A DNA stretch of 37,141 bases from a virus: the IMG/VR virus record IMGVR_UViG_3300014561_000002; one strand, given 5' to 3'. Shown here piece by piece: positions 1 through 17,814 of the stretch. Position 1 is the first letter of the stretch. The number at the start of each line of letters is the position of its first letter. The notes below the pieces were generated by a model that ran no database searches, was not told where the DNA came from, and saw only the letters and a list, made by a program, of their open reading frames with translations. The position numbers and the translations under genes are program-made.

Positions 1-78
1 TTCGTACAGCTCGCACAGGGCCACCTGAAGATCGGTGACACTGCTCTCCACGGCGGTCACCTGCGTCAGCAGGTCCGC
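1..78. repeat. Terminal overlap copy 1 (identical to 37064..37141)
   Basis: ttcgtacagctcgcacagggccacctgaag...cagcaggtccgc occurs at both window ends, compared base by base. Confidence 0.95.
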
Positions 79-1538: not shown

Positions 1539-1548
1539 CCGCCAAAGC

Positions 1549-1590
1549 AAGAGCACCCCGGCAGCCATTTCCGGCCGCCGGGGTGCTCTT
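1549..1590 (-). terminator. Stem-loop immediately after the giant ORF
   Basis: AAGAGCACCCCGGC (1549..1562) pairs perfectly with GCCGGGGTGCTCTT (1577..1590), a 14-bp stem lying 3 nt past the stop codon. The U-tract on the minus strand is weak (GCTTTGG). Confidence 0.5.
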
Positions 1591-1592
1591 TC

Positions 1593-4500
1593 TTATCTCA
1601 GGTCTGCGTAGGGGTCATTTACCGTGGTGGTCTGCGCCTTTTCGGCGTTCTTCAGCCAGGTGGCAAAGGTTTTCTGCTCGTACAGGGCGTTCCCGTCCCC
1701 ATCGGTCAGGGCCAGCAGCATCTCCTCCAGCTTCTGCCGGTCATAGTCGCTGCCGGCCAGATACTCCGGCTTGCACACCTCCGTGATCTTGCTCTTCAGG
1801 TTCGTCACGCTCTTTCCGGCCCGCAGCAGCCGGTCAAGCTCTTCCTGCACATCCTGTGCCCGGCCGCTGTCCACGGCCGCCACCAGGTCATCGGTCACGC
1901 TGTCGTTGTCGCCCTTCAGCACCTCGTTGGCCCGCTTGTTCACGGCGCCGGTCACGCAGTCGATCACGGCCTCCCGCTTGTCCGCGTCAGCCTTTGCGCC
2001 TTCCCGGATGCCCAGCGCCTCGTACAGGTCCCGGATCACCTGCCGCGTCAGCTGCTGGCGCTGGCTGTCGTTGCCGTTCACCTGGGCCTGGGCCGCCTGC
2101 TGCACCCGGTCGTCGTACTTTGCAAGGCGGGTCTTCAGCTGCTTGTAGGCCTCTTCCTCCTTGCCCATCTCCTGCAGCTTCTCCATGGCCGCCTGCGCCT
2201 CGCCCGCGTCGCCGCTGGCATAGGCATCATACAGCCGGTCGTACTGTCCGGTTGCGCTGGCAGGCAGGCTGCTGAAGGTAAATTTCCCGCCGTGGAACAT
2301 GTTCACCGCGTCCTGCACATAGCCCTTGAAGGCTTCCAGGATCTTCCGCCCGTTGCCAAAGGGCACGCCGGCAATTTCCAGTCCGTCCTCCATCAGGGTC
2401 AGGGCGTACTTCTCCACTTTGCCGTGGTGGGTCGCCAGCTTCGTTTCGTCCATGTCTGCCGTGTCCTTGCGCAGCTCGCTCACAAACTTTGTCACGTCCC
2501 CAGCCAGATCGTTCACGGCGCTGATGTTCGTGGCGCTCACCACATCATAATCCTTGCCGTTCAGGGCGTTGTCCACCAGGCTGTACACCTCGCTGCCAAA
2601 CAAAAAATTTCCGGCCGCGCTCTCGGTAAACAGCCCGGTAAAACGGCTCAGCAGGCTTTTCAGGGTCACGTCCCCGTTTTCGTCCTGCTCCCGGTCCCAC
2701 CGGTGCAGCAAAAAGTCCGCGCCGATCTTCATCAGGGCAAACACCGCCGTCTGCGCCACCTGGCTCCCCGCCGCCCGCTGCAGCTGCTTGCCGGCCCGCT
2801 GCAGCTCTGCCTTGGTCTCTTCCGTTTCGCCCTCTTCAAACCGCGCTTTCTGGGCGTTGTAGTCCATCACGGCGTCAGCCAGGATGCCGTAGTTCTGGAA
2901 CCGCTGGGTGGTAAACATGGTAAAGGTCTTTACAAACTCGTCCGGGTTGCGCTGGATGCCTGCCCGCTGCATCACGGTATAGTTGGGCTGGGTCTGCTCG
3001 ATCACCTTCTGGTACATCCGGTTCACGGCCTGCCAGTAGTCCTCACTGCCCTCTTTGGCAGCTCCCTCGGCAAATTCCCCGGGGTGGTTCTTCACGTAGG
3101 CCTTGCTGCCCTCCCACAGCGCTGCCACCGTCACCTCGTCCGCGCCGTTGATCCACCCGGTCAGGACTTTCGGCAGCTTGTCCATGGCCTTTTCTGCCGG
3201 TGTGAGGCCTTTGCCAATGCTGGCCAGTTCGCCCCGCTGGCTGCCGCGCTTGCGCCACTCCAGCAGCACGTCCCCGTGTTCCGAGATCTCCGTCTCCAGC
3301 GCCGCCCGCTGCTTCGGGGGGAAGTTCTTTACAAAGGGCACCACCGACGCCATGGTGTCGCTGCCCAGCACGGCCGCCGCCGTGGGCAGACTGGCTGCCT
3401 GCGCAATGGCCACGCCCGGATTCAAAGTCAGGATCGCCCCGGCGTAGTTGCCCCGCAGCCGGGCCGCCATCCGGCTCACGCCGTTGTCCCGCTTGCGCTG
3501 GGTGGTCTGCAGGTCGGTCAGCAGGTCGTTGATGTACTCCACCGCGCTGCGGCCCCACTGCTCCTTGATGATGCCGTTTTTCAGGTTGTACACGCCATCT
3601 TTTGTTTCCACGTTGCTGTTCAGCACCTTCTGCACGTCCCGGATGGGCAGTGCCAGGCCCGCATAAGCCGCCGTGTCCCGGATGCTGCGCTGCACCACAT
3701 TGCTGCACTCTTCCAGCAAAATGGGCTGCACCGCTTTCTTTACACGGTTCTTCAAAAAGCCCCGGCCCTCAATGGTGGCGTCAAGGTTCAGCCCCTCGAT
3801 CTGGGTCGCCAGGGCGCTCTTGTCCACCGCAATGGGGTAGTAGTTTTTCACCCCCGCCCGGTTATAGCCCAGCAGCTGCATGCTGGTCTCGTTGATCAGG
3901 TTTGTGGTGTACTGGTTGAACAGTTCCTGCATGTCCGCGATCCACGCCCGGTCGTAGTCGGTCAGGGCGTTTTCCACCGTCTGCAGCACCGTGTCCACCA
4001 TCGGGGTGCCGTCGGCATTCTGCAAGCCGCCCAGGTGCACGGTCTGGCCCTCCTGGTAGGCCCGTTCAATGTTTCCTTTTGTGTACTGTTCCATGTTCGG
4101 CACCGTCAGGCCGCCGTTCAGCAGATGCTGTCGGCTGTCCGCGTTCTGCAGATGCATGTACAGGCTGCACAGCATGGCGTGGTTCAGCGGCACGCTGTTG
4201 CCCTTGGTGTCGGTCAGGCCGATGTCCACCGTCTCGGCCCCCGGCCCGGCAAAGGCGTCCATCTCTTTCAGGTGGGTCTTGCCCGTCACGTCCGCAAAGA
4301 GTTTCTCGCCCTTGATGATGATCTCGCTCTGCCGGCGCTGGCCGTCGTTCAGCATCCTCGCCAGCTTCTCCATCTGGCCGTTCTTTGCGTAGCCGCCCAG
4401 CATGCGGAACACCCGCTCACCGCCCAGCATGTCCAGCTGGTACTTGGTCAGCGTGTTCCGTAGCCCGTCAAACCGCCCGCCGGGGCGGTTGCCCTTGCTG

Positions 4501-7500
4501 GTTTTCACCTCGTAGGCAGCAGCGTCCGCAATGGCGCTCACTTCCTCAGCCTTTGCAAGGCTCAACGTCTTGTTTTCGGTGCGGATCACATGCAGCGTGC
4601 TGCTGGTAATGGCTTTCAGCAGCCGCAGCTGGTCCACCGTCATGGGCAGATAGGTGCGGTTCTCCGTGTCCCGGATGCGCGCTTTCAGCCGGTCCTGCAG
4701 GGCCCGGGCCTTCTCACTGTCCGGCAGGGCTTCCGCCTGGGCCAGCTGCTCGTGCAGCTTGTCCAGCCGGGCATTCTTCGCAGCTGTCAGGTCCTCCCGC
4801 AGCGTCTGGATCAGTTCCGGCACCTTGCTCTGCTTCCAGTCCTCGGTCATGGCGTTGGGGGCTCCCTCGCTGCCCATGCTGGCCGTAATGCTGTCCTGCA
4901 GCCTCGTCAGCTGGTTCACAGCCTTGCTGTTCAGGGTCACCAGGTTCGCCAGCTTGGCCACCTCGGCCGCCTCCACGATCAGCCCCTTCTGCACATACTT
5001 GCCCTGCTGGGGCCGCAGCACCATCTGGTTCAGCTGGGCCGCGTTCGCCCGGATGCTCCGTTTCAGCTCGTCCGCCTTCCGGGCGTCCCGGGCCCGCTGC
5101 ACCCGGTTCTCGGCTACTTTCTTCGCAATGGCAATGTCCTCGTCCCGCTGCTGGCGGGCCACTTCCAGCGCAATGGCGTTCCGCTCCGTCTGCTTCTGGT
5201 ACCACTCCGCAGCTTTCTGCTGGTTCATCAGTTCCCAGTCCTGGATCTCCCTGTCCTGGATCATCAGCGAGCGCTCCGCCCGGTCGGCCCGGCGCTGCTC
5301 CTGCTTCACCTGATCGGCCAGATAGTCGTTTTCTTCCCGCAGCTCGCCCATGCGTTCCTTGTACCACAGCTTTGCTGCGTCCATGTCCTCCTGCCGCTGG
5401 GCTTTCAGCCGCTGCTCCTGCTGCTTCAGCTTCCGGCGGAACTCCTCCCGCTGGTAGGTGATGTACTCGTTCACGTCGCCCAGGTTGGTAAAGGTCTTTC
5501 CGTCGATCTTCACAGCGCTCCGGGTCTCGGTGCGCTGGTTGGCGGCCAGTCGGCGGGCAAACTCCTGCCGCTGCACTTTCTGGACACCCTGCATGCCCTT
5601 CTCCACCTCGGCGGCCCTTGCCTCGTCTCCGGCCGCCGCCTTGGCCATCTGTAGCGCCTGCTTCTGCATGCCCTCAAAAATAGCCTGGGCGTCGGTCATC
5701 TCGGGCACGTTCATAATGTCCTCGATCATCCGCCCGGCCAGCTCCACCCGGGCGTCCTCGTACTCGGCCTCGTCCGCAAAGCGGCTGCGCATCTCCGGCT
5801 TGATGCTGTCATGCAGATTCATCAGCACGTCCAGCCACTCGGTGCTCTCCATGCTCATGACACCCTCCACACCGGCCTGCTGGGCCGCCGCTTTCCACAG
5901 CGCCCGCGCACCGTCCTGGATGCCGCCCACGGCCCGGGTGTCGTTCACAATGCTCTCGTACTGCTCCGCCGGGTTTCCGTCCCGCACGCCGTCGGCCTGC
6001 CGCAGGGCCACACCGTGGCTGCGGGCCTCGGCCACCGCCGCGCTCCAGTTGCCGTACCGCTTCACCAGCTCCGCCTTGGCCTTGCCGGTCTTGTTCACGG
6101 TGTACTCCAGCCGGTGCAGCTCCGGGTATTCGTCCCACAGCTCACTGTTGCGGTAGGTCGCCCCGTCCAGCACCTCGCCCGCCAGCGTCTCGGCCAGCGC
6201 CTGGGCCTTTGTCATGTCCGCGCCGTCCGCTTTCAGGTAGTCCACCAGCACCCGGGTCTCGTTGGCCAGCTTTGCCCGGTCGGCCCGGCTGGCGTTGGCT
6301 TTCGTCCACCGCGCCGCCAGCCCGTCCAGGCTGTCCTGGCTCACCTTCACGCCTCTCGTCACCCCAAAGAACTGGCTCAGGGTGTCCAGTGCCGCCGCCG
6401 TGTTCGCAATATCCCGGCTCGCCTGCCGCTGGTCGTTCTTCTTTGCCTCCCGGCTGGCCTGCTCCGCCAGCTGGAAACGGAACTTTGCAAGGCTGCTTTC
6501 CTGCGCCAGCTCTCCGGTCTTGTAATACTCCCGGATCTCCCGCACCACCTTGTCCGCATCCACACGCCCGCTGTATTCCTTGCTGGCGGCAACCCTGCCG
6601 TCTGCTGTGGAGATGTCCAGCGTGAACTGCCTGCGCTCGCCGCCCAGCTGCTCGGCCATTTTCCGGATCTGTTCCAGCTGCTGCGCCGTGGGGGCCGTGT
6701 CCGCCGAAATGTCCACGCCCGGCGCTTCCGCCATCACACGCACATTGCCGTCCAGCAAAAACTCATTCAGCGCTTCCGTGCCGTTCTTCACTTCCGCCGG
6801 GCCGAACACCTCCAGAATTTCCCGGTGGTCGGTGTCCCGGCTGCGGTCATTCTGGGCAAAGTCCAGCATCTGGCCGTCCGGCAGAATGTACCCTGCCCGC
6901 CGGAACTCTTCCGTCACGCCGAACTGTTCCTTTGCCAGCACCCGCCGGTACTCTGCGTTACCGCCGTACTCTTTGGCCTTGGCATCGTAGGCACGCTGTG
7001 CGTCCTTGGCCTGGGCGTCCTTCCGCTGCTGCAGACGCTCATTGGCTGCTTTCATCTGCTCCGTCAGGGCACTGTCCCGCTCTTCCAGCGCGGCCAGTCG
7101 GCTGTTGTACTCCTTGCGCTTTGCAAGGTAGTCCTGGTATTCTGCGCTGTCCCGGTAGGCCTTGCCCTCTGCAGAAAAAACGCCCAGCGCCTTTTTCTTT
7201 GCCTCGATCCGCTGCACTTCGGCACTGTTCAGCCATGCGCTGCGTTCTTCCTTCAGGGCACTGCGCTGCTTGGTCAGTTGCTGCTGTTCGGTGCGCAGCT
7301 TTGCCAGCTCATCCTGCTCCGCCAGCTGATAGCGCACATTTTTCTGCACAGCTGCATTGTTTTCCTTGCTTTCGACAGCGGTTTGTGCTATAGTAGTGTC
7401 AGAAGATACTTCCTGAGCATCCGCAAGGGTGCTCCGCACAGCTTTCGGGAGCTGTGTGGGAGTATCTTCTTTTTTTGTCATATTTCCCTCAGTGTCAAAC

Positions 7501-10500
7501 GTCACATAGCTTCCATCTGCCCAGCATACCTCATGAACATAGAAATTCTTCATGCCATTCTGCCGGGTGTATTCTCTTACAATCACGCCTTCATACAGCT
7601 TTGTTCCGTCAATTTCGACGGGCGCTGCAAAGACATAAGTATCATACCCTCGTCCCTGCCAGTTTTGCTCATACCCGATTTGCTTTCCTTTTTGAATTAC
7701 TTCAGGGACTGCAGCAACCGCAACCTGTTTTGCTTTGCTGTTCCCATGCTGCACCGTTGCACGTGCACCGCTCTTTGTCAACTCCACCGTTCCGAAGTTT
7801 TCACGAATCACTTTGTTTCCTATAGAATCAAAGAATTCTTCAACATTGGAAATGTTTTCGTTTCGCGTTTTTCCGAAAGACACCTCTGTTCCTTCGATTG
7901 TCGCCACCGGTTTCATTTCTTCCAATTCGTCCAGATGGCCGTTCATCTGCTCCACCAGAGAATCTTTTCCCTCGTGCAGCTGGAACCGCACCCCCTGCGC
8001 CGCACCCTCACTCTTGAGGGCTGCGGCGTTTTCTTTTGCCGCCCGCAGGTTGTCCATGGCCTTTTCCGCATGGGCAAAATAGGCGTCCTGCAGGGCCCGT
8101 TTTTCCGCCTCGGCCAAACGCTGGGCTTTCAGGGCCGCCCGGTTCTCCGGGTCAAGGGTCAGCGCTTCCTTTGCCCGGCTGATGATGCCGTTCAGCATCT
8201 CCTTCACGGCGGTCATCACCTTGTGGATGGTGCCTGCCTTGCCGGCGTTCTTCTCCGCCTGCGCCCGCTGGAATTCGGCCCACCGGGTCACGCTCTCGGC
8301 ACTGTCAAAAATGCCGCGCCAGCTGTCCGCCACCAGTTCCTCAGCAGCCTGCTCATAGGTCAGGCCCTGGGCGGCATAGTCCTTCACCTTGTCCCGGATC
8401 AGCTCGTCCACGTTCTCAAAGCCCTCGCTCTTCGCCAGGTACTCCAGCGCCGTGTTCTGCACCGCCTTGGCACCCTCGGCATCCAGAGCGTTGTACCAGT
8501 GGTAGTCCTCGTGCAGCACCGTGCCAAACACGTCTCCGTTCCGGTCGCCAAAAAAGATGCGGCCCGTCTCGGTGTCCACATAGGCTTTCACCCGCTCGCT
8601 GGGGCTTCCGTCCGGGCCCAGCAGCACGCTCTTCAAAATGGCGTCCGTGCCGGTTCCCGCCGCGTTCAGCCGGATCACCTGGGCTGCCACATCGTCCGCC
8701 GCGCGGTCGCTGCCCTTCCAGATCACCCGGCCCTCGCCTTTCGTGCTCTGGTCGGTCAGGGCACCGCCCAGGGCCCCGCGCCCCACCGTGCCGGCTTCCA
8801 CTTCGCCCTGCCCCTGCAAAAAGGCCGCCCGCAGTGCCTGCTCTCCGCCGGGCTGCTGCAGTACATAGTTCGTGTTCGGGGCAAGGTTGTTCATGCCGCC
8901 CGCCAGCTCCAGCGCCTTGTCAAAGGTTTTCACCCCGTCCATCTGGCCCATGCGGTACATGCTGCTTGCTGCCGCCGTGTAGCGTTCCAGGTCTGCAATG
9001 CTGTCCGGCACCATCCGGCTGATGGTCTCCGCCGCGCCCTTGCTCACCTTCCAGTCCGTCAGCTCCCGCTGCACGGCCTGCTGCTTCTCAGTCAGGGTCT
9101 GCTGGCGCAGCCCCACCGTCCGCCGCAGGCCGTCCGGTGCTTCCCGGCTCTGCTGTGTCGTCTCCTGTGCTTCCTGCTGCGCAGCGGCCCGGCTTTCCGC
9201 CTGCGCCTGCTGGTGCAGCTGTTCCGGGTTAAACAGCATCGTTCTGGGGTTTTCCGGGTCTACCGTCCGCACCGCTTCCGTGCCGTCCGCAAAGCGCACC
9301 GTCATGGTGTCGTTGCTCATGCTCACGCTGTAGCCCTGCCCGCTTTCCACGGTTTCCCCAGCCTTTTCCACGGTACTTTGGCCCGGATCGGCGGCAGGGT
9401 TCTCCATCTGCGTCGCATTGTTCCCGACATTTGTGTCGGGAACTTCCGCCGCCTGCTGCACGGCCTGCCCGGCAGTCTGCTGCTGGGCAAGCGTGCGCAG
9501 GGCTTTCCGGGTCTCGCTGGCCGTGGCGGGCAGCTCCATGCCGTACTCCTCCGCAAAGGCCGCCCGGTTTGCTTCGTTGGCCGCGTTCGGGGTGAACAGG
9601 TTGATGGTCTTGCCCGTCAGGGCATCCGCCTCCATGGCGGCCGCCAGCTGCTGCACCGCCGGGTTCTCGCTGCGCACCGCTGGGGCTGCATCCTTCTGGG
9701 CAGTTGTTTCCGCAGCGTCGGCATTGTCCGTCTGCTGCACGGCGGCGGCCTGGTCTGCCTGCTGCCGTGCAGCTTCTCCCGGCTCCATGGCCCGCTCTTC
9801 CAGTGCCCGCTGCGCCGCCGCGGCATCCGCCGCCCGGCTCTCGGTGTCCGCCTGCACCGGGGCAGCCGTTTCCATCCCGGCCCGGGCATCCAGCGTCCGG
9901 CTCATGGCGCCCAGCCCCGTGCCCACGGCACCGCCCAGCGCACCGGAGGCACCACCCGTCAGGCCGCTCTGCAGCGCCTGCAAAAAGGTGTCGCTCTGCA
10001 GCAGCTCGTCGGCGGCCTGCTGGTCGCCGCCCAGCGTGGCATCAATGATCTTGTCCGCATAGGTTTCCACAAAGGCCTGCACCGCATTGTCCACTCCGCC
10101 GGAGATCGTGTTGGCGGCCAGCTGGCTGTTGCCCAGCCCGCTCACCAGCTTCGAGCTGCGCACAAGATCGGCCAGCTTTCCGGCCACCGTGTCCCGGGCA
10201 TAGTCCACGCCCATGCTGCGGGCCATGTCCGCCACGCCCACGCTGTTGATGGCCCAGCCTGCGCCAAACTTTGCAAGGCCCACGCCCACAGCCTGGCCGG
10301 CGCTGGTGCCCTTCTCCGCGTCCTGGCCCATGCTCTCGGCCGCGCCCTGGGCGCTCAGCACCGGCAGCACCAGGTAGGGGCTCACGCCCGCAACAGCCAG
10401 GTTCTCCGCCGCGCTGGTGGCAACGCCCATGGCTGTTTTGGCCGCCGGGCTCATGCCCGCCCGGGCTGCTTCCGTGCGCTGCTGGCCGTAGTGGTACAGC

Positions 10501-11675
10501 TGGTAGCCAAGGCTCGTGTCTTTATCCAGCGCCGTTTTCTGCACCGTCCCGGCAATGCGGCTGCGCATTTCGTCGATCTCGCTCTGGCTGTAGCCCATGC
10601 CGCGCAGATCCTCGTCGGTGTACTGGGGGTTATAGTCCATGTCCACCGCCGTGATCCGGTCTTTCAGTTCCTTGCCACGGGCATCGCCTTCCAGTTCCTT
10701 GTCCAGTGCCGCCTCGTTTTTCTGGGTAGCCCGGATGTCCTTCACGCCCTGGGTGGTCATCTCGCCCGCCATGGGCACCGCCGACGCCACCGTGGCCGTA
10801 ATGCCCTTTGTGGTGTCCGCCGTGCGGCGTGCCGCCCGCTCTGCCAGCGGCAGGGCATCATATTCCCGGATGTATGCCCGGGCCTCGTTGATCTCCTGGG
10901 CCGTGTACCCCATCTTCAAAAGGTCTCCGGGGCTGTACCGCTGCTTTGTACCGGTCACCTGCACGGCCTGCTCCGGGGCAACGCCCTTGTCCTCCTGAGT
11001 GGTGTACTCCTTCTGCCGCAGCAGGTCCACCACCTCCCGGTGCCGGGGGTCGGCATCCATCCACTGGTTCAGCTCGTCAAAGCGGTCTGTTGGCCGGTCC
11101 TTGGCAAGGGCATTCCCCGCCTTCTGCGCCGCCTTGGCGTAGCTGCCGTAGGTGCCCTGCGCAATGGCCCGCTGTTTCGGGGCGTTGTCGCTGCCAACAT
11201 AGTTCCAGTCCGGTTCGTAGTCCTCCTGCCGGTCCGTGGCCACCGGGCTGCCCGTGTTGCTGGCCATATCCGCCAGCACCTGCTTGCCCAGCGTGTCCGC
11301 GCTTACTGTTCCCAGCACCTGCCGGGTGCCGCCGGTCCAGGCCGGGGTGCTGGCCGTCGTCTGCAGGCGGCTGGTGCTGGCGGGGGCAGCCGTCATCTGG
11401 CTGCGGATCTGCGCCACCTGGGCCACGCTCAGGCCCGTGCCGGCGCTCTTGGCTGCCGGTGCCGCCGGGGTGGTCTTGGCCGTCTGGGTCGTCATCGTTT
11501 TCTTCTGGGCTGTCGTTCCGACGATGTTCGCCCGCTGGCTGTTCTTTGCCAGCGGGGCCGTCATGGTCTTCTTGGCCGTCTGAGTCGTCGTCTTCTTCTG
11601 GGCTGCGGTTTTTGCGGCGTCATTCGCTTTAATCTGCTCCCGCATCTGGCGCACCTGTTCTACACTCAGGCTCAT
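1593..11675 (-). CDS. Giant polyvalent virion protein (3,360 aa): TM/Gly-rich N-terminal region, zincin HExxH peptidase-like module, swapped effector-like modules, long coiled coil, large conserved C-terminal half
   Basis: Single uninterrupted ORF with AAAGGAGGAGCAAC before the ATG. HEDYH at aa 1055-1059. Hydrophobic Gly/Ala-rich stretches (MGVATSAAENLAVAGVSPYLVLPVLSAQGAAE, GVGLAKFGAGWAINSVGVA). Heptad-rich region (RLKAQRQEDMDAAKLWYKERMGELREENDYLADQVKQEQRRADRAE...). It is the last and largest gene of the virion module. Confidence 0.9.
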   Translation of the reverse strand: MSLSVEQVRQMREQIKANDAAKTAAQKKTTTQTAKKTMTAPLAKNSQRANIVGTTAQKKTMTTQTAKTTPAAPAAKSAGTGLSVAQVAQIRSQMTAAPASTSRLQTTASTPAWTGGTRQVLGTVSADTLGKQVLADMASNTGSPVATDRQEDYEPDWNYVGSDNAPKQRAIAQGTYGSYAKAAQKAGNALAKDRPTDRFDELNQWMDADPRHREVVDLLRQKEYTTQEDKGVAPEQAVQVTGTKQRYSPGDLLKMGYTAQEINEARAYIREYDALPLAERAARRTADTTKGITATVASAVPMAGEMTTQGVKDIRATQKNEAALDKELEGDARGKELKDRITAVDMDYNPQYTDEDLRGMGYSQSEIDEMRSRIAGTVQKTALDKDTSLGYQLYHYGQQRTEAARAGMSPAAKTAMGVATSAAENLAVAGVSPYLVLPVLSAQGAAESMGQDAEKGTSAGQAVGVGLAKFGAGWAINSVGVADMARSMGVDYARDTVAGKLADLVRSSKLVSGLGNSQLAANTISGGVDNAVQAFVETYADKIIDATLGGDQQAADELLQSDTFLQALQSGLTGGASGALGGAVGTGLGAMSRTLDARAGMETAAPVQADTESRAADAAAAQRALEERAMEPGEAARQQADQAAAVQQTDNADAAETTAQKDAAPAVRSENPAVQQLAAAMEADALTGKTINLFTPNAANEANRAAFAEEYGMELPATASETRKALRTLAQQQTAGQAVQQAAEVPDTNVGNNATQMENPAADPGQSTVEKAGETVESGQGYSVSMSNDTMTVRFADGTEAVRTVDPENPRTMLFNPEQLHQQAQAESRAAAQQEAQETTQQSREAPDGLRRTVGLRQQTLTEKQQAVQRELTDWKVSKGAAETISRMVPDSIADLERYTAAASSMYRMGQMDGVKTFDKALELAGGMNNLAPNTNYVLQQPGGEQALRAAFLQGQGEVEAGTVGRGALGGALTDQSTKGEGRVIWKGSDRAADDVAAQVIRLNAAGTGTDAILKSVLLGPDGSPSERVKAYVDTETGRIFFGDRNGDVFGTVLHEDYHWYNALDAEGAKAVQNTALEYLAKSEGFENVDELIRDKVKDYAAQGLTYEQAAEELVADSWRGIFDSAESVTRWAEFQRAQAEKNAGKAGTIHKVMTAVKEMLNGIISRAKEALTLDPENRAALKAQRLAEAEKRALQDAYFAHAEKAMDNLRAAKENAAALKSEGAAQGVRFQLHEGKDSLVEQMNGHLDELEEMKPVATIEGTEVSFGKTRNENISNVEEFFDSIGNKVIRENFGTVELTKSGARATVQHGNSKAKQVAVAAVPEVIQKGKQIGYEQNWQGRGYDTYVFAAPVEIDGTKLYEGVIVREYTRQNGMKNFYVHEVCWADGSYVTFDTEGNMTKKEDTPTQLPKAVRSTLADAQEVSSDTTIAQTAVESKENNAAVQKNVRYQLAEQDELAKLRTEQQQLTKQRSALKEERSAWLNSAEVQRIEAKKKALGVFSAEGKAYRDSAEYQDYLAKRKEYNSRLAALEERDSALTEQMKAANERLQQRKDAQAKDAQRAYDAKAKEYGGNAEYRRVLAKEQFGVTEEFRRAGYILPDGQMLDFAQNDRSRDTDHREILEVFGPAEVKNGTEALNEFLLDGNVRVMAEAPGVDISADTAPTAQQLEQIRKMAEQLGGERRQFTLDISTADGRVAASKEYSGRVDADKVVREIREYYKTGELAQESSLAKFRFQLAEQASREAKKNDQRQASRDIANTAAALDTLSQFFGVTRGVKVSQDSLDGLAARWTKANASRADRAKLANETRVLVDYLKADGADMTKAQALAETLAGEVLDGATYRNSELWDEYPELHRLEYTVNKTGKAKAELVKRYGNWSAAVAEARSHGVALRQADGVRDGNPAEQYESIVNDTRAVGGIQDGARALWKAAAQQAGVEGVMSMESTEWLDVLMNLHDSIKPEMRSRFADEAEYEDARVELAGRMIEDIMNVPEMTDAQAIFEGMQKQALQMAKAAAGDEARAAEVEKGMQGVQKVQRQEFARRLAANQRTETRSAVKIDGKTFTNLGDVNEYITYQREEFRRKLKQQEQRLKAQRQEDMDAAKLWYKERMGELREENDYLADQVKQEQRRADRAERSLMIQDREIQDWELMNQQKAAEWYQKQTERNAIALEVARQQRDEDIAIAKKVAENRVQRARDARKADELKRSIRANAAQLNQMVLRPQQGKYVQKGLIVEAAEVAKLANLVTLNSKAVNQLTRLQDSITASMGSEGAPNAMTEDWKQSKVPELIQTLREDLTAAKNARLDKLHEQLAQAEALPDSEKARALQDRLKARIRDTENRTYLPMTVDQLRLLKAITSSTLHVIRTENKTLSLAKAEEVSAIADAAAYEVKTSKGNRPGGRFDGLRNTLTKYQLDMLGGERVFRMLGGYAKNGQMEKLARMLNDGQRRQSEIIIKGEKLFADVTGKTHLKEMDAFAGPGAETVDIGLTDTKGNSVPLNHAMLCSLYMHLQNADSRQHLLNGGLTVPNMEQYTKGNIERAYQEGQTVHLGGLQNADGTPMVDTVLQTVENALTDYDRAWIADMQELFNQYTTNLINETSMQLLGYNRAGVKNYYPIAVDKSALATQIEGLNLDATIEGRGFLKNRVKKAVQPILLEECSNVVQRSIRDTAAYAGLALPIRDVQKVLNSNVETKDGVYNLKNGIIKEQWGRSAVEYINDLLTDLQTTQRKRDNGVSRMAARLRGNYAGAILTLNPGVAIAQAASLPTAAAVLGSDTMASVVPFVKNFPPKQRAALETEISEHGDVLLEWRKRGSQRGELASIGKGLTPAEKAMDKLPKVLTGWINGADEVTVAALWEGSKAYVKNHPGEFAEGAAKEGSEDYWQAVNRMYQKVIEQTQPNYTVMQRAGIQRNPDEFVKTFTMFTTQRFQNYGILADAVMDYNAQKARFEEGETEETKAELQRAGKQLQRAAGSQVAQTAVFALMKIGADFLLHRWDREQDENGDVTLKSLLSRFTGLFTESAAGNFLFGSEVYSLVDNALNGKDYDVVSATNISAVNDLAGDVTKFVSELRKDTADMDETKLATHHGKVEKYALTLMEDGLEIAGVPFGNGRKILEAFKGYVQDAVNMFHGGKFTFSSLPASATGQYDRLYDAYASGDAGEAQAAMEKLQEMGKEEEAYKQLKTRLAKYDDRVQQAAQAQVNGNDSQRQQLTRQVIRDLYEALGIREGAKADADKREAVIDCVTGAVNKRANEVLKGDNDSVTDDLVAAVDSGRAQDVQEELDRLLRAGKSVTNLKSKITEVCKPEYLAGSDYDRQKLEEMLLALTDGDGNALYEQKTFATWLKNAEKAQTTTVNDPYADLR
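7335..7970 (-). other. AT-rich domain cassette inside giant ORF (aa 1236-1447), possible PBECR/MuF-C-like nuclease-fold module
   Basis: Visibly lower GC than the flanking ORF sequence. It is bounded exactly by the junction motifs RFQLHE (7971..7988) and RYQLAE (7317..7334). Peptide: ...GTVELTKSGARATVQHGNSKAKQVAVAAVPEVIQKGKQIGYEQNWQGRGYDTYVFAAPVEIDG.... The fold assignment comes from memory of polyvalent-protein domains only. Confidence 0.4.
8499..8513 (-). other. HEDYH (HExxH zincin) motif inside giant ORF
   Basis: Codons CAC GAG GAC TAC CAC read directly from the sequence, in the context FGTVLHEDYHWYNALDAEG. It resembles the metallopeptidase modules described in phage and conjugative-element polyvalent proteins. 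The family assignment is inferred. Confidence 0.55.
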
Positions 11676-11687
11676 GTTGCTCCTCCT

Positions 11688-13265
11688 TTACCATCCCATA
11701 GTCTGCGACACCTGACTGATGGTGCTGTCGCTGTAATTTTTCCGGATCAGATACTCGGTGATCTGGGCCATGTCATAGCCATTGTTTGCCATCTGCTGTG
11801 CTTCTCGCAGCGCCGTATTGTAATTGCCGCCTTTCGGGCTGGCCATGTTCACCGACGCCCCCGCCACGCCGTCCACCGTGCCGCTGGTGCTCCACGGCGT
11901 TTTGGTGGTCGCTGCCGGCAGCTTGCTGGTCGTGGTTCCCGCCTTTCCCGCTCCGGTTCCTCCCGCCGCGCTCTGGGTACTGGCCTTGGTGCCGGTGTCT
12001 GCCTTGATCCATCCCGCATTGGTCAGGGTCCGCTTGTAAAAGTCGTACAGGGGCTCGGTGCCCTTCATGCTGGAAAATTTGTTTGCCATCTGCTGCAGCT
12101 GGCTGGTCGTATAGCCGCCGCTCTTGCTGGTGGTACCGCTCCCACCGCTTCTCGTGCCGCCGGTGCCCGTGGTCTTGTACCGCTGCTGCATTCCCAGCAG
12201 CGCCTGCTGGTAAGCCAGGTTCGAGCTGTTCTGCCGCCCCGCAACGGTGCTGAAGTCATCCACCGCATTTGTGTCCAGTCCGGCCAGGCGCAGGATCGTA
12301 TTCTTTGCGGAGTCGTTTCCATTGGCCGATGCATTCATGGCATTCAGCGCCGCATCCATCTGATCTTTTTCCACATCCGTCATGCCCTGCCAGGTGTCCA
12401 GGATCGTTTCGTCCAGGCCATACTGCCGCAGCGCCTCCCGGGCCGCATCCATGCTCCCGGCCTTTGCAAAGCTCAGCGCCTGTGTCAGGCCGCTCACCTT
12501 GTTCTGCCGGGTCGTATAGCTTTCTGTCCACTTGTCTACCTGCGTGCTGTCCAGTCCGTACATATCCATGATCTGCCGGGCCTGCTCCGGGTTTCCACTA
12601 TTGAACGCATCCTGTGCCATCTGGTAGCCCTGTGCCTGGATCTGCAGTTTCTGCTGCCCGTACTTCTCGTAGTTCTGGTAGCCGTTCCACACTGCGCTTC
12701 CCACGCCCTTGATGCCCGTCCACACATTGTTCCAGAAGTCGCTGTTCTCCTGCCGTGCCGTGTCCACCCGGCCGCTCAGGTAGTCCCGCCAGTTCTGGGC
12801 ATTGCTCACGCTGCCGTCATACTCGCTGCGTTCCAGGCTCTGCTGGCCCAGCAGGTCGTCCAGCACGCTGGCGGTGTCGCTCATCTTCTGCTTCCAGTTC
12901 TGCAAAGCGTCCGCTCGCAGGCTGCTCAGGCTGTTGTCCACGCCTGCGATCTGCTCCCCTGCCGCCTGGTTCGCCGCCGTCTTGGCCCAATCCGCACCGT
13001 ACCCGCCCGCCAGGGTATTGGCCGTGCCGGCAGCGGCTGCCGCGCCGTTCTGGGCGTTGGCCACGCTGTTGGCCCGGTACTGCTGGTAGGCGGCATTCAG
13101 GGCGTCCGTGTCCACGCCGGTGCTGCCGGTCAGGCTGGCATCCGCCAGCTGCCCCAGCTTCTGGTTGATGCTGTCCGTGTAGTTGTTCTGGTAGGCCCCC
13201 GGCATAGCCTGTTCGGCCTGGGCCAGCTTCTTCTTTGCTGTGTTCAGTCTCGCAATGGTTCCCAT
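11688..13265 (-). CDS. Virion protein of unknown function (525 aa), paralogous N-terminus to the 194-aa protein
   Basis: ORF inside the virion module. Its stop lies 10 nt before the giant-gene ATG. It shares the pattern ...Y..Y...I...LGQL...D.AYQQY....A.Q...AA..GGY... with 13278..13862. The motif GLDxxxxDxW recurs three times. Confidence 0.7.
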   Translation of the reverse strand: MGTIARLNTAKKKLAQAEQAMPGAYQNNYTDSINQKLGQLADASLTGSTGVDTDALNAAYQQYRANSVANAQNGAAAAAGTANTLAGGYGADWAKTAANQAAGEQIAGVDNSLSSLRADALQNWKQKMSDTASVLDDLLGQQSLERSEYDGSVSNAQNWRDYLSGRVDTARQENSDFWNNVWTGIKGVGSAVWNGYQNYEKYGQQKLQIQAQGYQMAQDAFNSGNPEQARQIMDMYGLDSTQVDKWTESYTTRQNKVSGLTQALSFAKAGSMDAAREALRQYGLDETILDTWQGMTDVEKDQMDAALNAMNASANGNDSAKNTILRLAGLDTNAVDDFSTVAGRQNSSNLAYQQALLGMQQRYKTTGTGGTRSGGSGTTSKSGGYTTSQLQQMANKFSSMKGTEPLYDFYKRTLTNAGWIKADTGTKASTQSAAGGTGAGKAGTTTSKLPAATTKTPWSTSGTVDGVAGASVNMASPKGGNYNTALREAQQMANNGYDMAQITEYLIRKNYSDSTISQVSQTMGW

Positions 13266-13277
13266 GGTGTCCCCTCC

Positions 13278-13862: not shown

Positions 13863-14053
13863 TCCGTCTCCCCCTTACTGCTCAAAAAATTCTCGCTCAT
13901 GTTCTCGCTGTCCAGGTTGGTCAGCACGTAGCCCAGCTGTTCCTGCAGCTGGTACAGGTAGTTGCGCAGCGCCCGGGCGTCCTCCGGGTCCATGCTGCTG
14001 CCAAAGCTGGGCAGGCTGATGCCGTTCAGCCCCGCTAAACTCGCCATGTTCAT
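13859..14053 (-). CDS. Small virion-module protein (64 aa)
   Basis: ORF packed between the 629-aa and 194-aa genes and coupled to both neighbours. No recognisable motif. Confidence 0.55.
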   Translation of the reverse strand: MNMASLAGLNGISLPSFGSSMDPEDARALRNYLYQLQEQLGYVLTNLDSENMSENFLSSKGETE

Positions 14054-17762: not shown

Positions 17763-17814
17763 GGTTTGGTCCTCCTTCAAAGGTTTATGTTCTCACACCC
17801 TCGTGTGGGAAGTC

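What the first reader, a model, noticed from the sequence alone, without database searches (positions are those of the whole stretch)
1593..11675. One 10,083-nt ORF (3,360 aa, 27% of the genome) encoding a polyvalent virion protein in a phage with no recognisable tape measure or tail tube
The ORF is the terminal gene of the virion module. It combines several parts:
- an N-terminal duplicated motif (LSVEQVRQMREQI/LSVAQVAQIRSQM and AQKKTTTQTAKKT/AQKKTMTTQTAKT, nt 11397..11669);
- Gly/Ala-rich hydrophobic segments reminiscent of tape-measure or ejection proteins;
- a zincin HEDYH module;
- at least two cassette-like internal modules;
- a ~250-aa charged coiled coil;
- a >1,200-aa C-terminal half of unknown function.

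This fits the polyvalent-protein concept, in which multi-effector proteins are packaged into virions and delivered with the DNA. It may substitute for ejection/internal-core proteins in a podovirus-like particle. The functions of most of its length are unknown, and its effector modules may target host defences.
Basis: partly seen in the sequence, partly recalled or inferred. Interest (0 to 1): 0.7.

Follow-up and report, generated by a model that had tools for sequence, protein, structure and literature searches.

The report
Giant modular virion-cargo protein of gut phage
A single real 3,360-residue gene in a temperate Faecalibacterium-type phage encodes a 'polyvalent' protein: two conserved scaffold regions and a conserved metalloprotease-like module flank swappable cassettes. 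It is most likely packed in the phage head and injected with the DNA, which is a known kind of protein in an unstudied lineage.

Summary
The ORF (1593..11675, minus strand, 3,360 aa) is real and is one gene.
- It has a strong ribosome-binding site, and GC3 is 0.8-0.93 in one frame throughout.
- Substitutions against close relatives fall mostly on the third codon position.
- 52 independent IMG/VR contigs carry an equivalent closed ORF of 3,195-3,653 aa. Only 4 relatives are split, each at a different place.

It belongs to a very large family (3,150 clusters at 50% identity) of 2,500-5,200 aa proteins from gut Clostridia and Bacteroidota (pro)phages. Their variable middles carry hallmark polyvalent-protein domains: LPD3 here; ART-PolyVal, PBECR3/5, MuF_C and LPD23 in relatives.

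Architecture:
- a repeat-bearing N-terminus;
- a Gly/Ala-rich N-core;
- a variable linker;
- a zincin-like module with invariant HExxH...EE;
- two swappable cassette slots bounded by R[FY]QL linkers (one cassette is low-GC, the other is flanked by 16-nt direct repeats);
- a constant module;
- a roughly 1,300-aa all-alpha C-core with no Pfam or PDB match.

The neighbourhood looks like a podovirus: P22-type portal, a propeller-containing nozzle-like protein, no tube or tape measure, and a T7-like gene order.

Packaging and ejection are inferred from position and from analogues found in virions by mass spectrometry (JC1 gp69, phi24B gp47). They were not shown here. The peptidase fold could not be confirmed by structure prediction. 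Verdict: a new member of a known kind, of moderate interest.

The parts
1593..11675 (-). Giant gene, 3,360 aa plus stop; a single ORF
   Evidence: GC3 profile; codon-position substitution bias; 52 closed single ORFs of 3,195-3,653 aa in IMG/VR relatives.
11681..11687 (-). Shine-Dalgarno AGGAGGA, 5 nt upstream of the ATG
   Evidence: Read directly from the sequence.
11376..11675 (-). N-terminal low-complexity K/T/A/Q-rich region (aa 1-100) with duplicated motifs LSVEQVRQMREQI/LSVAQVAQIRSQM and AQKKTTTQTAKKT/AQKKTMTTQTAKT; length-variable in relatives
   Evidence: Relatives L001 and L006 lack about 31 aa here. Homology to more distant relatives starts only at aa ~76-180.
9816..11138 (-). N-core (aa ~180-620): conserved region with Gly/Ala-rich, moderately hydrophobic segments (peaks at aa 426-444 and 463-481)
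   Evidence: Nearly invariant columns in A2 are still recognisable in giants of 20-30% identity. It is retained in the minimal 2,053-aa version L074 and in P0014.
9129..9815 (-). Variable Q/A/E-rich linker (aa 621-849) between N-core and zincin module
   Evidence: Composition. Among 57 relatives the distance from the N-core end to the zincin-module start varies from 98 to 357 aa. Homology breakpoints lie at aa ~588-609 and ~729-850.
7989..9128 (-). Zincin-like module (aa 850-1229); HEDYH at aa 1055-1059 (nt 8499-8513), invariant EE at aa 1112-1113
   Evidence: Motif. Invariance in 155 close sequences and in alignments A2, A5 and A6. An iterated profile finds the module in 102 of 148 family representatives, at 20-32% of protein length. 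Weak zincin hits. AF2 topology is strands, then the HExxH helix, then a helix, at pLDDT 60.
7335..7988 (-). Cassette slot 1 (aa 1230-1447): LPD3 domain (Pfam hit aa 1277-1375, nt 7551-7847) in a low-GC island
   Evidence: Pfam PF18798, E=1.2e-9 on the whole protein and 1.1e-11 on the tile. GC is 0.46-0.50 against 0.64, and GC3 is 0.42-0.57. The slot holds other families in relatives.
6480..7334 (-). Cassette slot 2 (aa 1448-1732): a coiled-coil segment plus a globular domain of unknown function
   Evidence: Absent from 97%-identical L001. No Pfam hit. Coiled-coil heuristic positive at aa 1514-1572. Slot content varies among 57 relatives, with 7 architectures.
7313..7328 (-). 16-nt direct repeat CAGCTGGCGGAGCAGG (copy 1), encoding QLAEQ of the VRYQLAEQ linker
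   Evidence: Together with copy 2 it brackets exactly the 855-nt in-frame indel relative to L001.
6458..6473 (-). 16-nt direct repeat CAGCTGGCGGAGCAGG (copy 2), encoding QLAEQ of the FRFQLAEQ linker
5511..6479 (-). Module 3 (aa 1733-2055), constant in the close subfamily; function unknown
   Evidence: Present in all 57 giants compared (family 0). Only a sub-threshold LPD22 hint, E=0.042.
1596..5510 (-). C-core (aa 2056-3360): charged helical/coiled-coil entry (aa ~2040-2230), then a highly conserved all-alpha region with motifs such as QAASxPTAAAVLG, TQPNYTxMQR and TMFTTQRFQN
   Evidence: phrog_22978 and phrog_28077, both of unknown function. 3,150 family representatives, and the region lies at the C-terminal end of 2,500-5,189-aa proteins. 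Invariant columns. No Pfam or PDB match. AF2 is all-helical at pLDDT 56. BFVD hits are to the last fragments of polyvalent giants.
1545..1594 (-). 19-bp GC-rich hairpin immediately after the stop codon (terminator-like), followed by a second small hairpin plus U-run at 1530-1542
   Evidence: RNA fold -43 kcal/mol, z=-8.3. Terminator scan. Sequence.
11688..13265 (-). Upstream gene g525 (525 aa), Q/N/A/G-rich, no family hit; positional analogue of a podovirus internal/ejection protein
13278..13862 (-). g194 (194 aa); its N-terminus resembles that of g525; hydrophobic C-terminal end
14057..15946 (-). g629: nozzle-like protein with beta-propeller-type repeats; PHROG label 'internal virion protein'
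   Evidence: phrog_511, E=3e-41. Matches to designed propeller 'Cake' proteins, E=6e-5.
16734..17780 (-). Major capsid protein with an N-terminal Prp cleavage motif KKLNLQLFA|D
17815..19284 (-). Prp cysteine protease fused to a scaffold-like protein, with an internal MNLQYFA|E site
19259..21286 (-). P22-type portal
   Evidence: PF16510, E=2.5e-28; phrog_156.
1..1473 (-). Downstream tail-fibre-like gene (496 aa). It starts at 1473, runs off the window start and ends at 37046-37063 of the circle
   Evidence: It has repeated LTAEDVGA motifs and no Pfam hit.

Best explanation
The gene encodes a phage-type polyvalent protein. It is a very large late protein that is most likely incorporated into the capsid interior of a podovirus-like particle and expelled through the portal and nozzle at infection, ahead of or with the DNA.

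Shown here:
- It is one translated gene under purifying selection in the virion operon.
- Its backbone consists of the N-core, the zincin-like module and above all the ~1,300-aa C-core. This backbone is shared by thousands of giant (pro)phage proteins.
- Between zincin and C-core lie two slots whose content is exchanged among close relatives at conserved R[FY]QL linkers. In this genome slot 1 holds a recently acquired low-GC LPD3 domain.

Inferred:
- The conserved backbone provides packaging and ejection functions, such as docking in the capsid and forming or extending the channel across the Gram-positive envelope. It occupies the position that gp16 holds in T7.
- The cassettes are early-acting effectors against host or rival-element functions.
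- The zincin module cuts the polyprotein into working pieces (autoprocessing), or alternatively helps breach the wall.
- Cassette turnover occurs by recombination at the short linker homologies.
For: Single real gene.

Polyvalent membership:
- LPD3 is above the Pfam cut-off.
- Family members carry ART-PolyVal (6 of 13), PBECR5, MuF_C, LPD3, LPD23, PBECR3, GNAT and MTase. Precomputed PF18798/18812/18814/18819 hits appear in closer homologues.
- BFVD matches are to proteins named PolyVal ADP-ribosyltransferase, LPD-containing or MuF_C-containing.

Backbone versus cargo:
- Minimal natural versions keep N-core plus C-core (L074, P0014), or C-core with few extras (P0109, seen on 23+ contigs).
- The C-core has 3,150 representatives and always lies at the C-terminal end.
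- The zincin module is in 102 of 148 representatives at a fixed relative position.

Cassettes:
- Seven slot architectures among 57 giants.
- Homology breakpoints coincide with the R[FY]QL linkers.
- A 16-nt direct repeat brackets the indel.
- GC3 drops in the LPD3 cassette.

Podovirus-like context:
- P22-type portal, Prp-processed capsid and scaffold, and a propeller-containing nozzle-like g629.
- No tube, sheath or tape-measure hits.
- The order portal, scaffold, capsid, small proteins, nozzle, 62/194/525-aa proteins, GIANT, fibre, lysis parallels T7 gp8-gp17.

Analogues proven in virions:
- JC1 gp69 is 4,515 aa, 22% of its genome, carries LPD3, is the last large gene before the lysis module, and gave 51 peptides in virion MS (PMC9144972).
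- phi24B gp47 is 2,811 aa with LPD domains, abundant in virions, invisible in cryo-EM, and proposed to be an ejection protein.
- N4 vRNAP and the MPTase logic are described in PMC5512222.
- A remote C-core match is annotated 'structural protein' in the podovirus Tenacibaculum phage Gundel_1.
Against: - There are no proteomic or structural data for this phage or any close relative. No cultured phage in GenBank carries a detectable homologue.
- The C-core and N-core have no match to any solved ejection or internal-core protein, and hhalign to the N4 vRNAP C-terminal region is null.
- Both AF2 models are low-confidence, so the Gundel match (TM 0.19, 12% identity) is weak.
- The zincin fold is unconfirmed, and Pfam's MPTase-PolyVal model does not hit.
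- The R[FY]QL linker also occurs in P0109-type proteins that lack a zincin, which weakens the idea that it is a zincin cleavage site.
- The linker motif is not enriched outside the close subfamily.
- Podovirus morphology is inferred from genes only.
Confidence: 0.55

Rival explanations
1. It is a tape-measure-like or tail-lumen structural protein of a long-tailed phage that has accreted cargo domains. The Gly/Ala-rich hydrophobic segments and the long helical C-terminal half would line the tail tube and form the membrane channel, as tape-measure proteins do.
For: - It lies between the head/neck genes and the fibre and lysis genes.
- It has Gly/Ala-rich hydrophobic segments and an almost entirely alpha-helical predicted C-core.
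- Low-probability BFVD matches to tape-measure and minor-tail proteins appear at ranks 18-50, with E from 1.5e-4 upward and probability 0.47 or less.
- UniProt names of some homologous uncultured contigs say Siphoviridae or Myoviridae.
Against: - No Pfam, PHROG or NCBIfam tape-measure hit for this protein or 28 relatives.
- No tail tube, sheath, tail-assembly-chaperone pair, Dit or Tal detected in the window or in L001, L002, L004 or L006.
- The portal is P22/SU10-type, and g629 is nozzle-like with propeller repeats.
- The length varies from 2,050 to more than 5,000 aa by gain and loss of globular cassettes within closely related phages with the same head genes. That is hard to reconcile with a ruler.
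- The family names on 'ct' contigs are automatic labels.
Confidence: 0.12
2. It is an external virion appendage (a muzzle, needle or fibre-associated complex) anchored by the C-core, displaying its enzymatic cassettes on the outside of the particle rather than being ejected from the head.
For: - It lies adjacent to the fibre gene.
- The C-terminal ~45-aa repeats have a very weak resemblance to Cpl-7 CW_7 cell-wall-binding repeats (5i8l, E=0.063).
- There is one isolated PHROG tail-spike hit, E=1.4e-4, in 1 of 15 members.
Against: - The cassette types in the family (ART, BECR RNases, MuF_C, methyltransferase, GNAT) act on intracellular targets according to PMC5512222.
- No beta-helix, fibre or receptor-binding domains were detected.
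- The analogue phi24B gp47 is abundant yet invisible in the virion map.
- The CW_7 and tail-spike hits are below significance.
Confidence: 0.1
3. It is a late-expressed, non-packaged multi-effector acting in the producing cell or released at lysis (superinfection exclusion, inter-phage or inter-bacterial toxin delivery). It would be co-located with virion genes only for timing.
For: - Nothing here demonstrates packaging.
- A strong terminator hairpin sets the gene at the end of its transcription unit.
- The prophage also carries a ToxIN-like abortive-infection module, which shows investment in conflict systems.
Against: - The gene is conserved at the same position inside the structural operon across 60-99% identical and more distant relatives.
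- A conserved ~1,300-aa non-enzymatic-looking backbone is retained even when all cassettes are lost.
- There is no signal peptide-like N-terminus.
- The experimentally studied analogues are virion proteins.
Confidence: 0.1
4. The 10-kb ORF is an artefact: two or more genes joined by assembly or sequencing errors.
For: - Four relatives are split: L001 by a 4-nt insertion at aa ~840, L006 by A5 to A6 just before VRYQL, and also L004 and L043.
- All hits in the protein database are 2,197 aa or shorter.
Against: - 52 independently assembled contigs have closed single ORFs of 3,195-3,653 aa.
- The splits are at four different positions.
- The representative library contains homologues of up to 5,189 aa. 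The 2,200-aa ceiling of the other database therefore looks like a property of that collection (the 3,360-aa query also failed there).
- There is uniform GC3 and third-position substitution bias in one frame.
Confidence: 0.02

Closest known systems
Bcep22-like podovirus giant virion protein (Bcep22 gp75 / JC1 gp69, 'DarB-like antirestriction protein', 4,515 aa)
   Same: - A podovirus with a single gene taking ~22-27% of the genome, placed as the last large gene of the morphogenesis module before lysis.
- Multidomain polyvalent architecture that includes an LPD3 domain.
- For JC1, shown in purified virions by mass spectrometry (PMC9144972).
   Different: - JC1 gp69 has lytic transglycosylase, methylase, SNF2-type helicase and LPD38 domains. 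None was detected here.
- Proteobacterial host.
- No sequence similarity was found between the backbones: tblastn of both halves against 50,697 phage records gave no Bcep22-like hit.
- The conserved N-core, zincin and C-core backbone of the present family is not described for gp69.
Stx phage phi24B gp47 (2,811 aa large polyvalent protein)
   Same: - A podovirus with a large polyvalent protein carrying LPD domains and a metallopeptidase-type domain.
- Abundant in virions by proteomics but absent from the cryo-EM map.
- Proposed to be packaged in the capsid and to act as an ejection protein forming the trans-envelope conduit (bioRxiv 10.64898/2026.04.10.717836). This is the same functional model as proposed here.
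   Different: - Different LPD set (LPD5, LPD1, LPD38, MuF_C).
- Gram-negative host.
- No detectable sequence relationship.
- For phi24B virion presence is measured; here it is not.
Polyvalent proteins as defined by Iyer, Burroughs, Anand, de Souza and Aravind 2017 (PMC5512222), including their zincin-like MPTase hub domain
   Same: - A large protein combining unrelated domains, encoded next to packaging and virion genes.
- LPD3 here; ART-PolyVal, PBECR and MuF_C in family members.
- A zincin-type HExxH + Glu module as a recurrent hub, with autoproteolytic release of domains proposed.
   Different: - The two largest and most conserved parts of this family (N-core and the ~1,300-aa C-core) match no Pfam LPD or other model.
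- Pfam's MPTase-PolyVal model does not recognise this zincin clade.
Coliphage N4 virion RNA polymerase gp50 (3,500 aa)
   Same: A podovirus protein of similar size that is packaged and injected. It contains an MPTase region followed by a C-terminal region needed for encapsidation (PMC5512222). hhalign places this family's HExTH helix on N4's HELVH, though without significance.
   Different: - No RNA polymerase domain here.
- The C-core is unrelated to the N4 C-terminal region (hhalign probability 0.5%).
- This phage is temperate: it is found as a prophage in L001, and the L002/L003 relatives (61% identical over the C-terminal ~1,950 aa) have a tyrosine integrase next to the locus.
T7 internal core / ejectosome protein gp16 (with gp14, gp15)
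   Same: - Same position in the gene order: portal, scaffold, capsid, adaptor/nozzle, small and medium internal proteins, largest internal protein, fibre (T7 order from established knowledge).
- The largest protein of the set, predicted to be largely alpha-helical.
   Different: - No sequence or fold match to any solved T7, P22 or other ejection protein.
- 2.5 times larger.
- Carries exchangeable cassettes.
- Gram-positive host, so there is no periplasm to span.

Membership tests
Polyvalent proteins (Iyer et al. 2017) | Carries signature polyvalent-protein domains (LPD, MPTase, ART-PolyVal, PBECR, MuF_C and others) | tested here: met
   LPD3 (PF18798) scores 38.8-45.3 bits against a cut-off of 27. 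Homologues of the same backbone carry ART-PolyVal, PBECR3/5, MuF_C, LPD3 and LPD23.
Polyvalent proteins (Iyer et al. 2017) | Several biochemically disparate domains in one large polypeptide | tested here: met
   At least eight separable regions bounded by homology breakpoints, including a zincin-like module, LPD3 and two further globular modules. Only LPD3 has a curated family assignment.
Polyvalent proteins (Iyer et al. 2017) | Encoded in the context of phage packaging/virion (late) genes or conjugative transfer genes | tested here: met
   Same strand and operon as terminase, portal, capsid and nozzle-like genes, with fibre and lysis genes downstream.
Polyvalent proteins (Iyer et al. 2017) | Delivered into the host cell with the invading DNA | not testable with these tools
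   Needs virion proteomics and infection assays. Only analogues are documented.
Zincin-like metallopeptidase (MPTase) | HExxH on one helix and a Glu ligand on the following helix, conserved across the family | tested here: met
   H1055, E1056, H1059 and E1112/E1113 are invariant in 155 close sequences and in alignments down to 13-30% identity. AF2 places HExxH in helix 200-215 of the module, followed by further helices.
Zincin-like metallopeptidase (MPTase) | Zincin core fold (three-stranded sheet, N-terminal helix, two C-terminal helices) recognised by structure or profile comparison | tested here: inconclusive
   AF2 pLDDT is 60 and Foldseek against PDB found nothing at E<=0.001. Profile hits are weak but all are zincins in register: DUF6782 in 5 of 19 members (best 6e-5), M48 3c37 E=0.041, ArdC 6sna E=0.1, Wss1 5xbn E=0.34. 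N4 MPTase by hhalign: E=0.032, probability 1.6%.
Zincin-like metallopeptidase (MPTase) | Match to Pfam MPTase-PolyVal (PF18818) | tested here: not met
   No hit in this protein, its tiles, 13 distant giants or 19 excised modules.
Tail tape measure protein | Sequence match to tape-measure families, and a companion tail tube and chaperone pair upstream with Dit/Tal downstream | tested here: not met
   No such Pfam, PHROG or NCBIfam hits for the protein or its neighbours in the window or in four related loci. There are only low-probability Foldseek resemblances, from a poor model.
Podovirus internal-core/ejection proteins (T7 gp14-16, P22 gp7/20/16 type) | Gene position between the nozzle/adaptor genes and the fibre gene in a short-tailed phage | tested here: met
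   Gene order. Morphology itself is not observed.
Podovirus internal-core/ejection proteins (T7 gp14-16, P22 gp7/20/16 type) | Homology to a characterised ejection protein | tested here: not met
   No hit by sequence or profile search against PDB chains or by Foldseek against PDB.
Podovirus internal-core/ejection proteins (T7 gp14-16, P22 gp7/20/16 type) | Located inside the capsid and released at infection | not testable with these tools
   Requires proteomics or cryo-EM of full versus emptied particles.
N4-type virion RNA polymerase | Single-subunit RNA polymerase domain | tested here: not met
   No polymerase family hit. The C-core against the N4 gp50 C-terminal 1,401 aa gives hhalign probability 0.5%.

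The most novel reading that the evidence does not exclude
Three linked proposals:
1. The ~1,300-aa C-core (with the Gly/Ala-rich N-core) is an undescribed, very widespread delivery chassis. It would be the part that docks a cargo protein in the capsid and builds the envelope-crossing channel, defining a superfamily of cargo-carrying ejection proteins in short-tailed (pro)phages of gut Clostridia and Bacteroidota.
2. Effector cassettes are plugged into this chassis at fixed slots through short conserved R[FY]QL linkers. These would serve as recombination joints, as the 16-nt repeats here suggest.
3. The linkers may also serve as processing sites for the resident zincin.
Probability: 0.25. Interest if true: 0.65.

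Novelty: new member of a known kind. Interest (0 to 1): 0.42.

Why it matters
Faecalibacterium and related Clostridia are dominant, health-associated gut bacteria, and their phages are barely studied experimentally. This prophage lineage spends more than a quarter of its genome on one protein, and that protein's family is very large in metagenomes.

If the protein is packaged and injected, its swappable cassettes are a natural catalogue of early-acting anti-host and anti-defence effectors for these hosts. In the family they include ADP-ribosyltransferases, BECR-type RNases and LPD domains of unknown function.

The conserved C-core would then be a candidate envelope-crossing machine for Gram-positive podovirus-like phages, for which no ejectosome is characterised. 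The defined slot-and-linker organisation also gives a practical handle for mapping constant versus variable parts and for engineering cargo.

Tried and rejected
1. The whole 3,360-aa protein could not be searched: the search for homologous proteins failed and the tblastn length limit was exceeded. I worked with halves and tiles instead.
2. That protein database never returned anything longer than 2,197 aa. This at first suggested the gene is normally split. DNA-level retrieval from IMG/VR rejected that reading, and so did the representative library, which holds homologues up to 5,189 aa.
3. Pfam on ten tiles at E<=1 found nothing beyond LPD3 and a sub-threshold LPD22 hint. NCBIfam found nothing.
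4. PDB sequence and profile searches found nothing meaningful except weak zincin hits. They covered the whole protein, the zincin alignments A1 and A6, and the C-core alignment A7.
5. Both AlphaFold jobs gave low confidence: zincin module pLDDT 60, C-core pLDDT 56. Foldseek against PDB was uninformative for both. The BFVD search is useful only as a homology signal.
6. I tested whether the phage's own Prp protease could process the giant. Canonical NLQxFA sites exist in the capsid and scaffold proteins but in none of 57 giants, so this was rejected.
7. I tested whether R[FY]QL is a general family feature. It is enriched about 12-fold in the close subfamily but not across distant representatives. 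It also persists in zincin-less proteins, so the cleavage-site idea stays speculative.
8. Faecalibacterium phages Epona and Lugh (PMC5883640) were considered as relatives. They are classed as Myoviridae and Siphoviridae types, and no Faecalibacterium phage record matched in GenBank.
9. tblastn with three distant C-core representatives against cultured phages found no bridge to annotated phages. The Gundel_1 accession could not be obtained to verify that link by sequence.
10. hhalign to the N4 vRNAP C-terminal region gave no relationship.

Full report
**1. The observation**

The window lists an ORF at 1593..11675 on the minus strand, 3,360 aa, and it translates without a stop.
- A consensus AGGAGGA sits 5 nt before the ATG, directly after the stop codon of the upstream gene.
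- In this 63% GC genome GC3 is 0.77-0.93 in the reading frame along the entire length. The exception is aa ~1201-1440, where it falls to 0.42-0.57. That stretch coincides with a nucleotide low-GC island at ~7250-8000.
- Against six relatives of 97-99% nucleotide identity, 58-61% of substitutions fall on codon position 3, and synonymous changes outnumber non-synonymous about 1.5 to 1. The frame is therefore under purifying selection over its length.
- A 2,706-aa ORF on the opposite strand (5811..13931) is most simply the antisense shadow ORF expected opposite a long high-GC gene; I did not test it separately.
- The window's first and last 78 nt are identical, so it is a circular assembly of 37,063 bp. 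The gene takes 27% of it.

**2. One gene or several?**

The protein-database searches returned only proteins of 2,197 aa or less, and two close relatives are split.
- L001 is a prophage in a 540-kb bacterial contig. It has 887-aa and 2,167-aa ORFs because of a 4-nt insertion at aa ~840.
- L006 has 1,419-aa and 1,921-aa ORFs because an A5 run is A6 just before the VRYQL linker.
- L004 and L043 are also split.

I then fetched 79 IMG/VR loci at the DNA level with the middle of the protein. Of these, 52 hold one closed stop-to-stop ORF of 3,195-3,653 aa, and four more are longer than 3,000 aa but cut by contig ends. The representative library also contains homologues of up to 5,189 aa.

The four splits are at four different places. 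The single giant ORF is the normal state, and the 2,200-aa ceiling looks like a property of one database. The 'several genes' refutation fails.

**3. Anatomy**

Homology breakpoints, composition and family searches give this layout.
- **aa 1-100:** The region is variable: L001 and L006 lack about 31 aa here.
- **aa ~180-620 (N-core):** includes the Gly/Ala-rich hydrophobic stretch. It is nearly invariant among homologues and still alignable in giants of only 20-30% identity.
- **aa 621-849:** a Q/A/E-rich linker. The distance it spans, from the N-core end to the zincin-module start, varies from 98 to 357 aa among relatives.
- **aa 850-1229:** the HEDYH module.
- **aa 1230-1447:** a cassette with a Pfam LPD3 domain, E=1.2e-9 on the whole protein and 1.1e-11 on a tile, above the curated cut-off.
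- **aa 1448-1732:** a second cassette with no family match.
- **aa 1733-2055:** a module present in all 57 close giants.
- **aa 2056-3360 (C-core):** begins with a highly charged helical stretch. KRDE is 0.36-0.43 at aa 2001-2200, the heptad heuristic is positive at 2052-2149, and AF2 gives long helices.

The three boundaries at aa 1230, 1448 and 1733 each carry the motif [VF]R[FY]QL.

**4. The cassettes are real cassettes**

- Module 1448-1732 is exactly what 97%-identical L001 lacks. It is bracketed by a perfect 16-nt direct repeat, CAGCTGGCGGAGCAGG, encoding the QLAEQ of both linkers, 855 nt apart and in frame.
- Among 57 giants, the two slots between the zincin module and module 3 hold members of three piece families in seven combinations.
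- In homologues the same region carries LPD3, PBECR5, PBECR3 or MuF_C.
- The LPD3 cassette's GC3 drop points to recent import from a lower-GC donor.
- R[FY]QL occurs 2-4 times per giant against 0.21 expected, though the sequences are related.
- In some split alleles the downstream gene begins right at the linker, for example P0053 with MKKSVRFQLS.
- The motif is not enriched in distant family members, so it is a feature of the subfamily.

**5. The zincin question**

- H1055, E1056, H1059 and E1112/E1113 are invariant in 155 distinct close sequences. They are also invariant in a 45-sequence alignment reaching 29% identity, across 13 giants of ~20-38% identity, and in 19 excised modules of 13-30% identity.
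- An iterated profile finds the module in 102 of 148 family representatives, always at 20-32% of the protein's length, mostly as HELTH. The module is therefore part of the conserved backbone, not a variable effector.
- The AF2 model has pLDDT 60. It shows strands, then the HExxH helix, then further helices, which is the zincin order described in PMC5512222. The model is too poor for Foldseek, which gave no hit at E<=0.001.
- Profile evidence is weak but consistent. Pfam DUF6782 ('putative metallopeptidase') hits 5 of 19 modules, best E=6e-5. PDB profile hits are an M48 peptidase at E=0.041, ArdC at 0.1 and Wss1 at 0.34, aligned helix-strand-strand-HExxH in register. hhalign puts the motif on N4 vRNAP's HELVH, inside the region Iyer et al. 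call an MPTase, but without significance.
- Pfam's MPTase-PolyVal model never hits.
- My reading is that this is a divergent zincin clade. The signature is met and the fold is unproven.

**6. The C-core**

- This is the best-conserved part and the only universal one.
- A search with aa 2161-3360 found 3,150 cluster representatives at E<=1e-3 and 1,032 at E<=1e-30. Most are 2,500-5,189 aa with the match at their C-terminal end.
- Natural minimal versions keep N-core plus C-core only (L074 at 2,053 aa; P0014), or C-core with modules 2/3 and a short unrelated N-terminus (P0109, 2,083 aa, on 23+ contigs).
- It has many invariant polar residues and motifs such as QAASxPTAAAVLG, TQPNYTxMQR and TMFTTQRFQN.
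- It matches nothing in Pfam, even at E=0.5 over 15 members. It matches nothing in NCBIfam and nothing in PDB by sequence, profile or fold. It matches only two PHROGs of unknown function.
- AF2 predicts an all-helical protein at pLDDT 56, worst in the most conserved stretch.
- Foldseek against BFVD gave probability-1.0 matches to the last fragments of uncultured-phage giants named PolyVal ADP-ribosyltransferase, LPD-containing, MuF_C-containing or nuclease. This reflects sequence homology more than shape, since TM is only ~0.2. It also matched a 'structural protein' of Tenacibaculum phage Gundel_1 at E=3e-10 and 12% identity. Gundel_1 is a cultured phage of podoviral morphology (PMC8776804). 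I could not verify that link by sequence.
- hhalign to the encapsidation region of N4 vRNAP is null.

**7. Family identity**

Thirteen distant giants scanned against Pfam carry ART-PolyVal (6), PBECR5 (4), MuF_C (3), LPD3 (2), LPD23, PBECR3, a GNAT and a methyltransferase. All but the GNAT and the methyltransferase are families that Pfam itself describes as polyvalent-protein or phage domains, and LPD3, MuF-C and the PBECR clade are described in Iyer et al. 2017. The window's protein is therefore a polyvalent protein by domain content, size and context.

**8. Context**

All on the minus strand:
- an HTH small-terminase-like gene, then the large terminase;
- a P22/SU10-type portal;
- a Prp cysteine protease fused to a scaffold-like protein;
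- the major capsid protein;
- 102- and 126-aa proteins;
- a 629-aa protein (PHROG 'internal virion protein') with propeller-type repeats (E=6e-5 to designed propellers), as expected of a nozzle;
- a 194-aa and a 525-aa Q/N/A/G-rich protein;
- the giant gene;
- a 19-bp hairpin (-43 kcal/mol, z=-8.3);
- a fibre-like 496-aa gene wrapping the window end;
- then a holin gene in the window (35972-36397); in 97%-identical L001 the corresponding stretch holds a 55-aa gene, an M15 endolysin and two holins.

No tube, sheath, tape measure, chaperone pair, Dit or Tal is detectable here or in four related loci. The order parallels T7 gp8-gp17 (T7 order from established knowledge), with the giant in the gp16 position.

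Hosts are Faecalibacterium (including cultured isolates) and other Oscillospiraceae, Ruminococcaceae and Lachnospiraceae, plus a few Bacteroidales MAGs. No cultured phage in GenBank has a detectable homologue.

**9. Mechanism**

Best-supported model (confidence ~0.55): a capsid-packaged, ejected cargo protein.
- The conserved backbone provides incorporation and channel-forming or ejection functions.
- The two slots carry exchangeable early effectors.
- The zincin may process the polyprotein, as proposed for polyvalent MPTases.

The gene, its modular population structure, its family and its context are shown. Packaging, ejection, processing and effector activity are inferred from position and from analogues:
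- JC1 gp69: 4,515 aa, 22% of its genome, with LPD3 and 51 virion peptides;
- phi24B gp47: 2,811 aa, abundant in virions, invisible in the cryo-EM map, and proposed to be an ejection protein;
- N4 vRNAP.

Rivals are a tape-measure-like protein (0.12), an external appendage (0.10), a non-packaged late effector (0.10) and an artefact (0.02).

**10. Novelty and score**

The kind (polyvalent virion proteins of podoviruses) is known, and family members already carry 'PolyVal' names in UniProt. This is therefore a new member of a known kind.

Three things are less ordinary:
- the size and complete lack of annotation of the C-core family;
- the clear split into chassis and slots, with linker repeats;
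- the host group.

Interest: 0.42.

Noticed in passing
window 31546-32209 (+), inside the low-GC island ~29000-33000: A ToxN-family toxin gene (31682-32209, Pfam PF13958, E=5e-47) is preceded by a 36-nt tandem repeat (2.3 copies, 31546-31629), as expected for a ToxI antitoxin RNA. This is a type III toxin-antitoxin / abortive-infection module carried by the phage. The surrounding 4 kb has GC 0.41-0.48 against ~0.64 elsewhere, so it looks like imported cargo.
   Followed up: partly
window 1-78 and 37064-37141: The first and last 78 nt are identical, so the window is a circularly closed assembly of 37,063 bp. The fibre-like gene downstream of the giant gene runs across this junction (1473 to 1, then 37063 to 37046).
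   Followed up: yes
window 16734-17780 (-) and 17815-19284 (-): The capsid protein N-terminus (MKWKKLNLQLFA|DAHE) and the junction between the Prp protease domain and the scaffold-like part of the 489-aa protein (GKMNLQYFA|EGGD) both carry the Prp cleavage motif known from ribosomal protein L27 and staphylococcal phage 80alpha (recalled from memory, not checked against the literature here). The phage brings its own Prp. The listed TTG start of the capsid gene is probably 6 codons too early. No such site occurs in the giant protein or in 56 homologues.
   Followed up: yes
window 5811-13931 (+): A 2,706-aa ORF lies antisense to the giant gene and its upstream neighbours. It is most simply the shadow ORF expected opposite a long gene in a high-GC genome, given that the minus-strand frame shows the coding signals (GC3, third-position substitution bias, homologues); the + strand ORF itself was not tested.
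   Followed up: partly
window 1530-1594 (-): A 19-bp GC-rich hairpin starts within the stop codon of the giant gene (-43 kcal/mol, z=-8.3). It is followed by a second small hairpin with a U-run. The giant gene therefore probably ends a transcription unit, and the fibre gene has its own strong ribosome-binding site.
   Followed up: partly
L006:14192-14251, L001:9776-9835 (relatives); window ~7330-7345 and ~9150-9170: Close relatives carry frameshifts that split the giant gene: an A5 to A6 change in the run just upstream of the VRYQL linker (L006), and four single-base insertions within 15 nt (L001). I could not tell whether these are sequencing errors, decay in prophages, or a slippery site used for regulated expression.
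   Followed up: partly
window 11688-13862 (-): The 194-aa and 525-aa proteins upstream of the giant gene appear, by eye, to share a similar N-terminal ~100 aa and are Q/N/A/G-rich. g194 ends in a hydrophobic tail. By eye, g525 contains three ~35-aa repeats of the form xAxxxLxxxGLDxxxxxxW. The giant's C-terminus has two ~45-aa repeats that weakly resemble the Cpl-7 CW_7 wall-binding repeat (5i8l, E=0.063). These may be wall-contacting helical hairpins, but nothing here is significant.
   Followed up: partly
window 14057-15946 (-): The 629-aa protein that PHROGs labels 'internal virion protein' contains beta-propeller-type repeats (designed 'Cake' propellers, E=6e-5). By position it fits a podovirus nozzle better than an internal protein.
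   Followed up: partly
L002/L003 (ENA contigs with P0109): A 2,083-aa version of the protein (C-core plus modules, with no N-core and no zincin) sits in an element with integrase, Abi_2 and Mrr_cat genes, a capsid gene and several fibre-like genes. No portal or terminase lies within ~7.4 kb (L002) or ~3.7 kb (L003) upstream of the capsid gene, the distance these loci cover. It could be a rearranged prophage or a satellite-like element that uses the same cargo protein.
   Followed up: no
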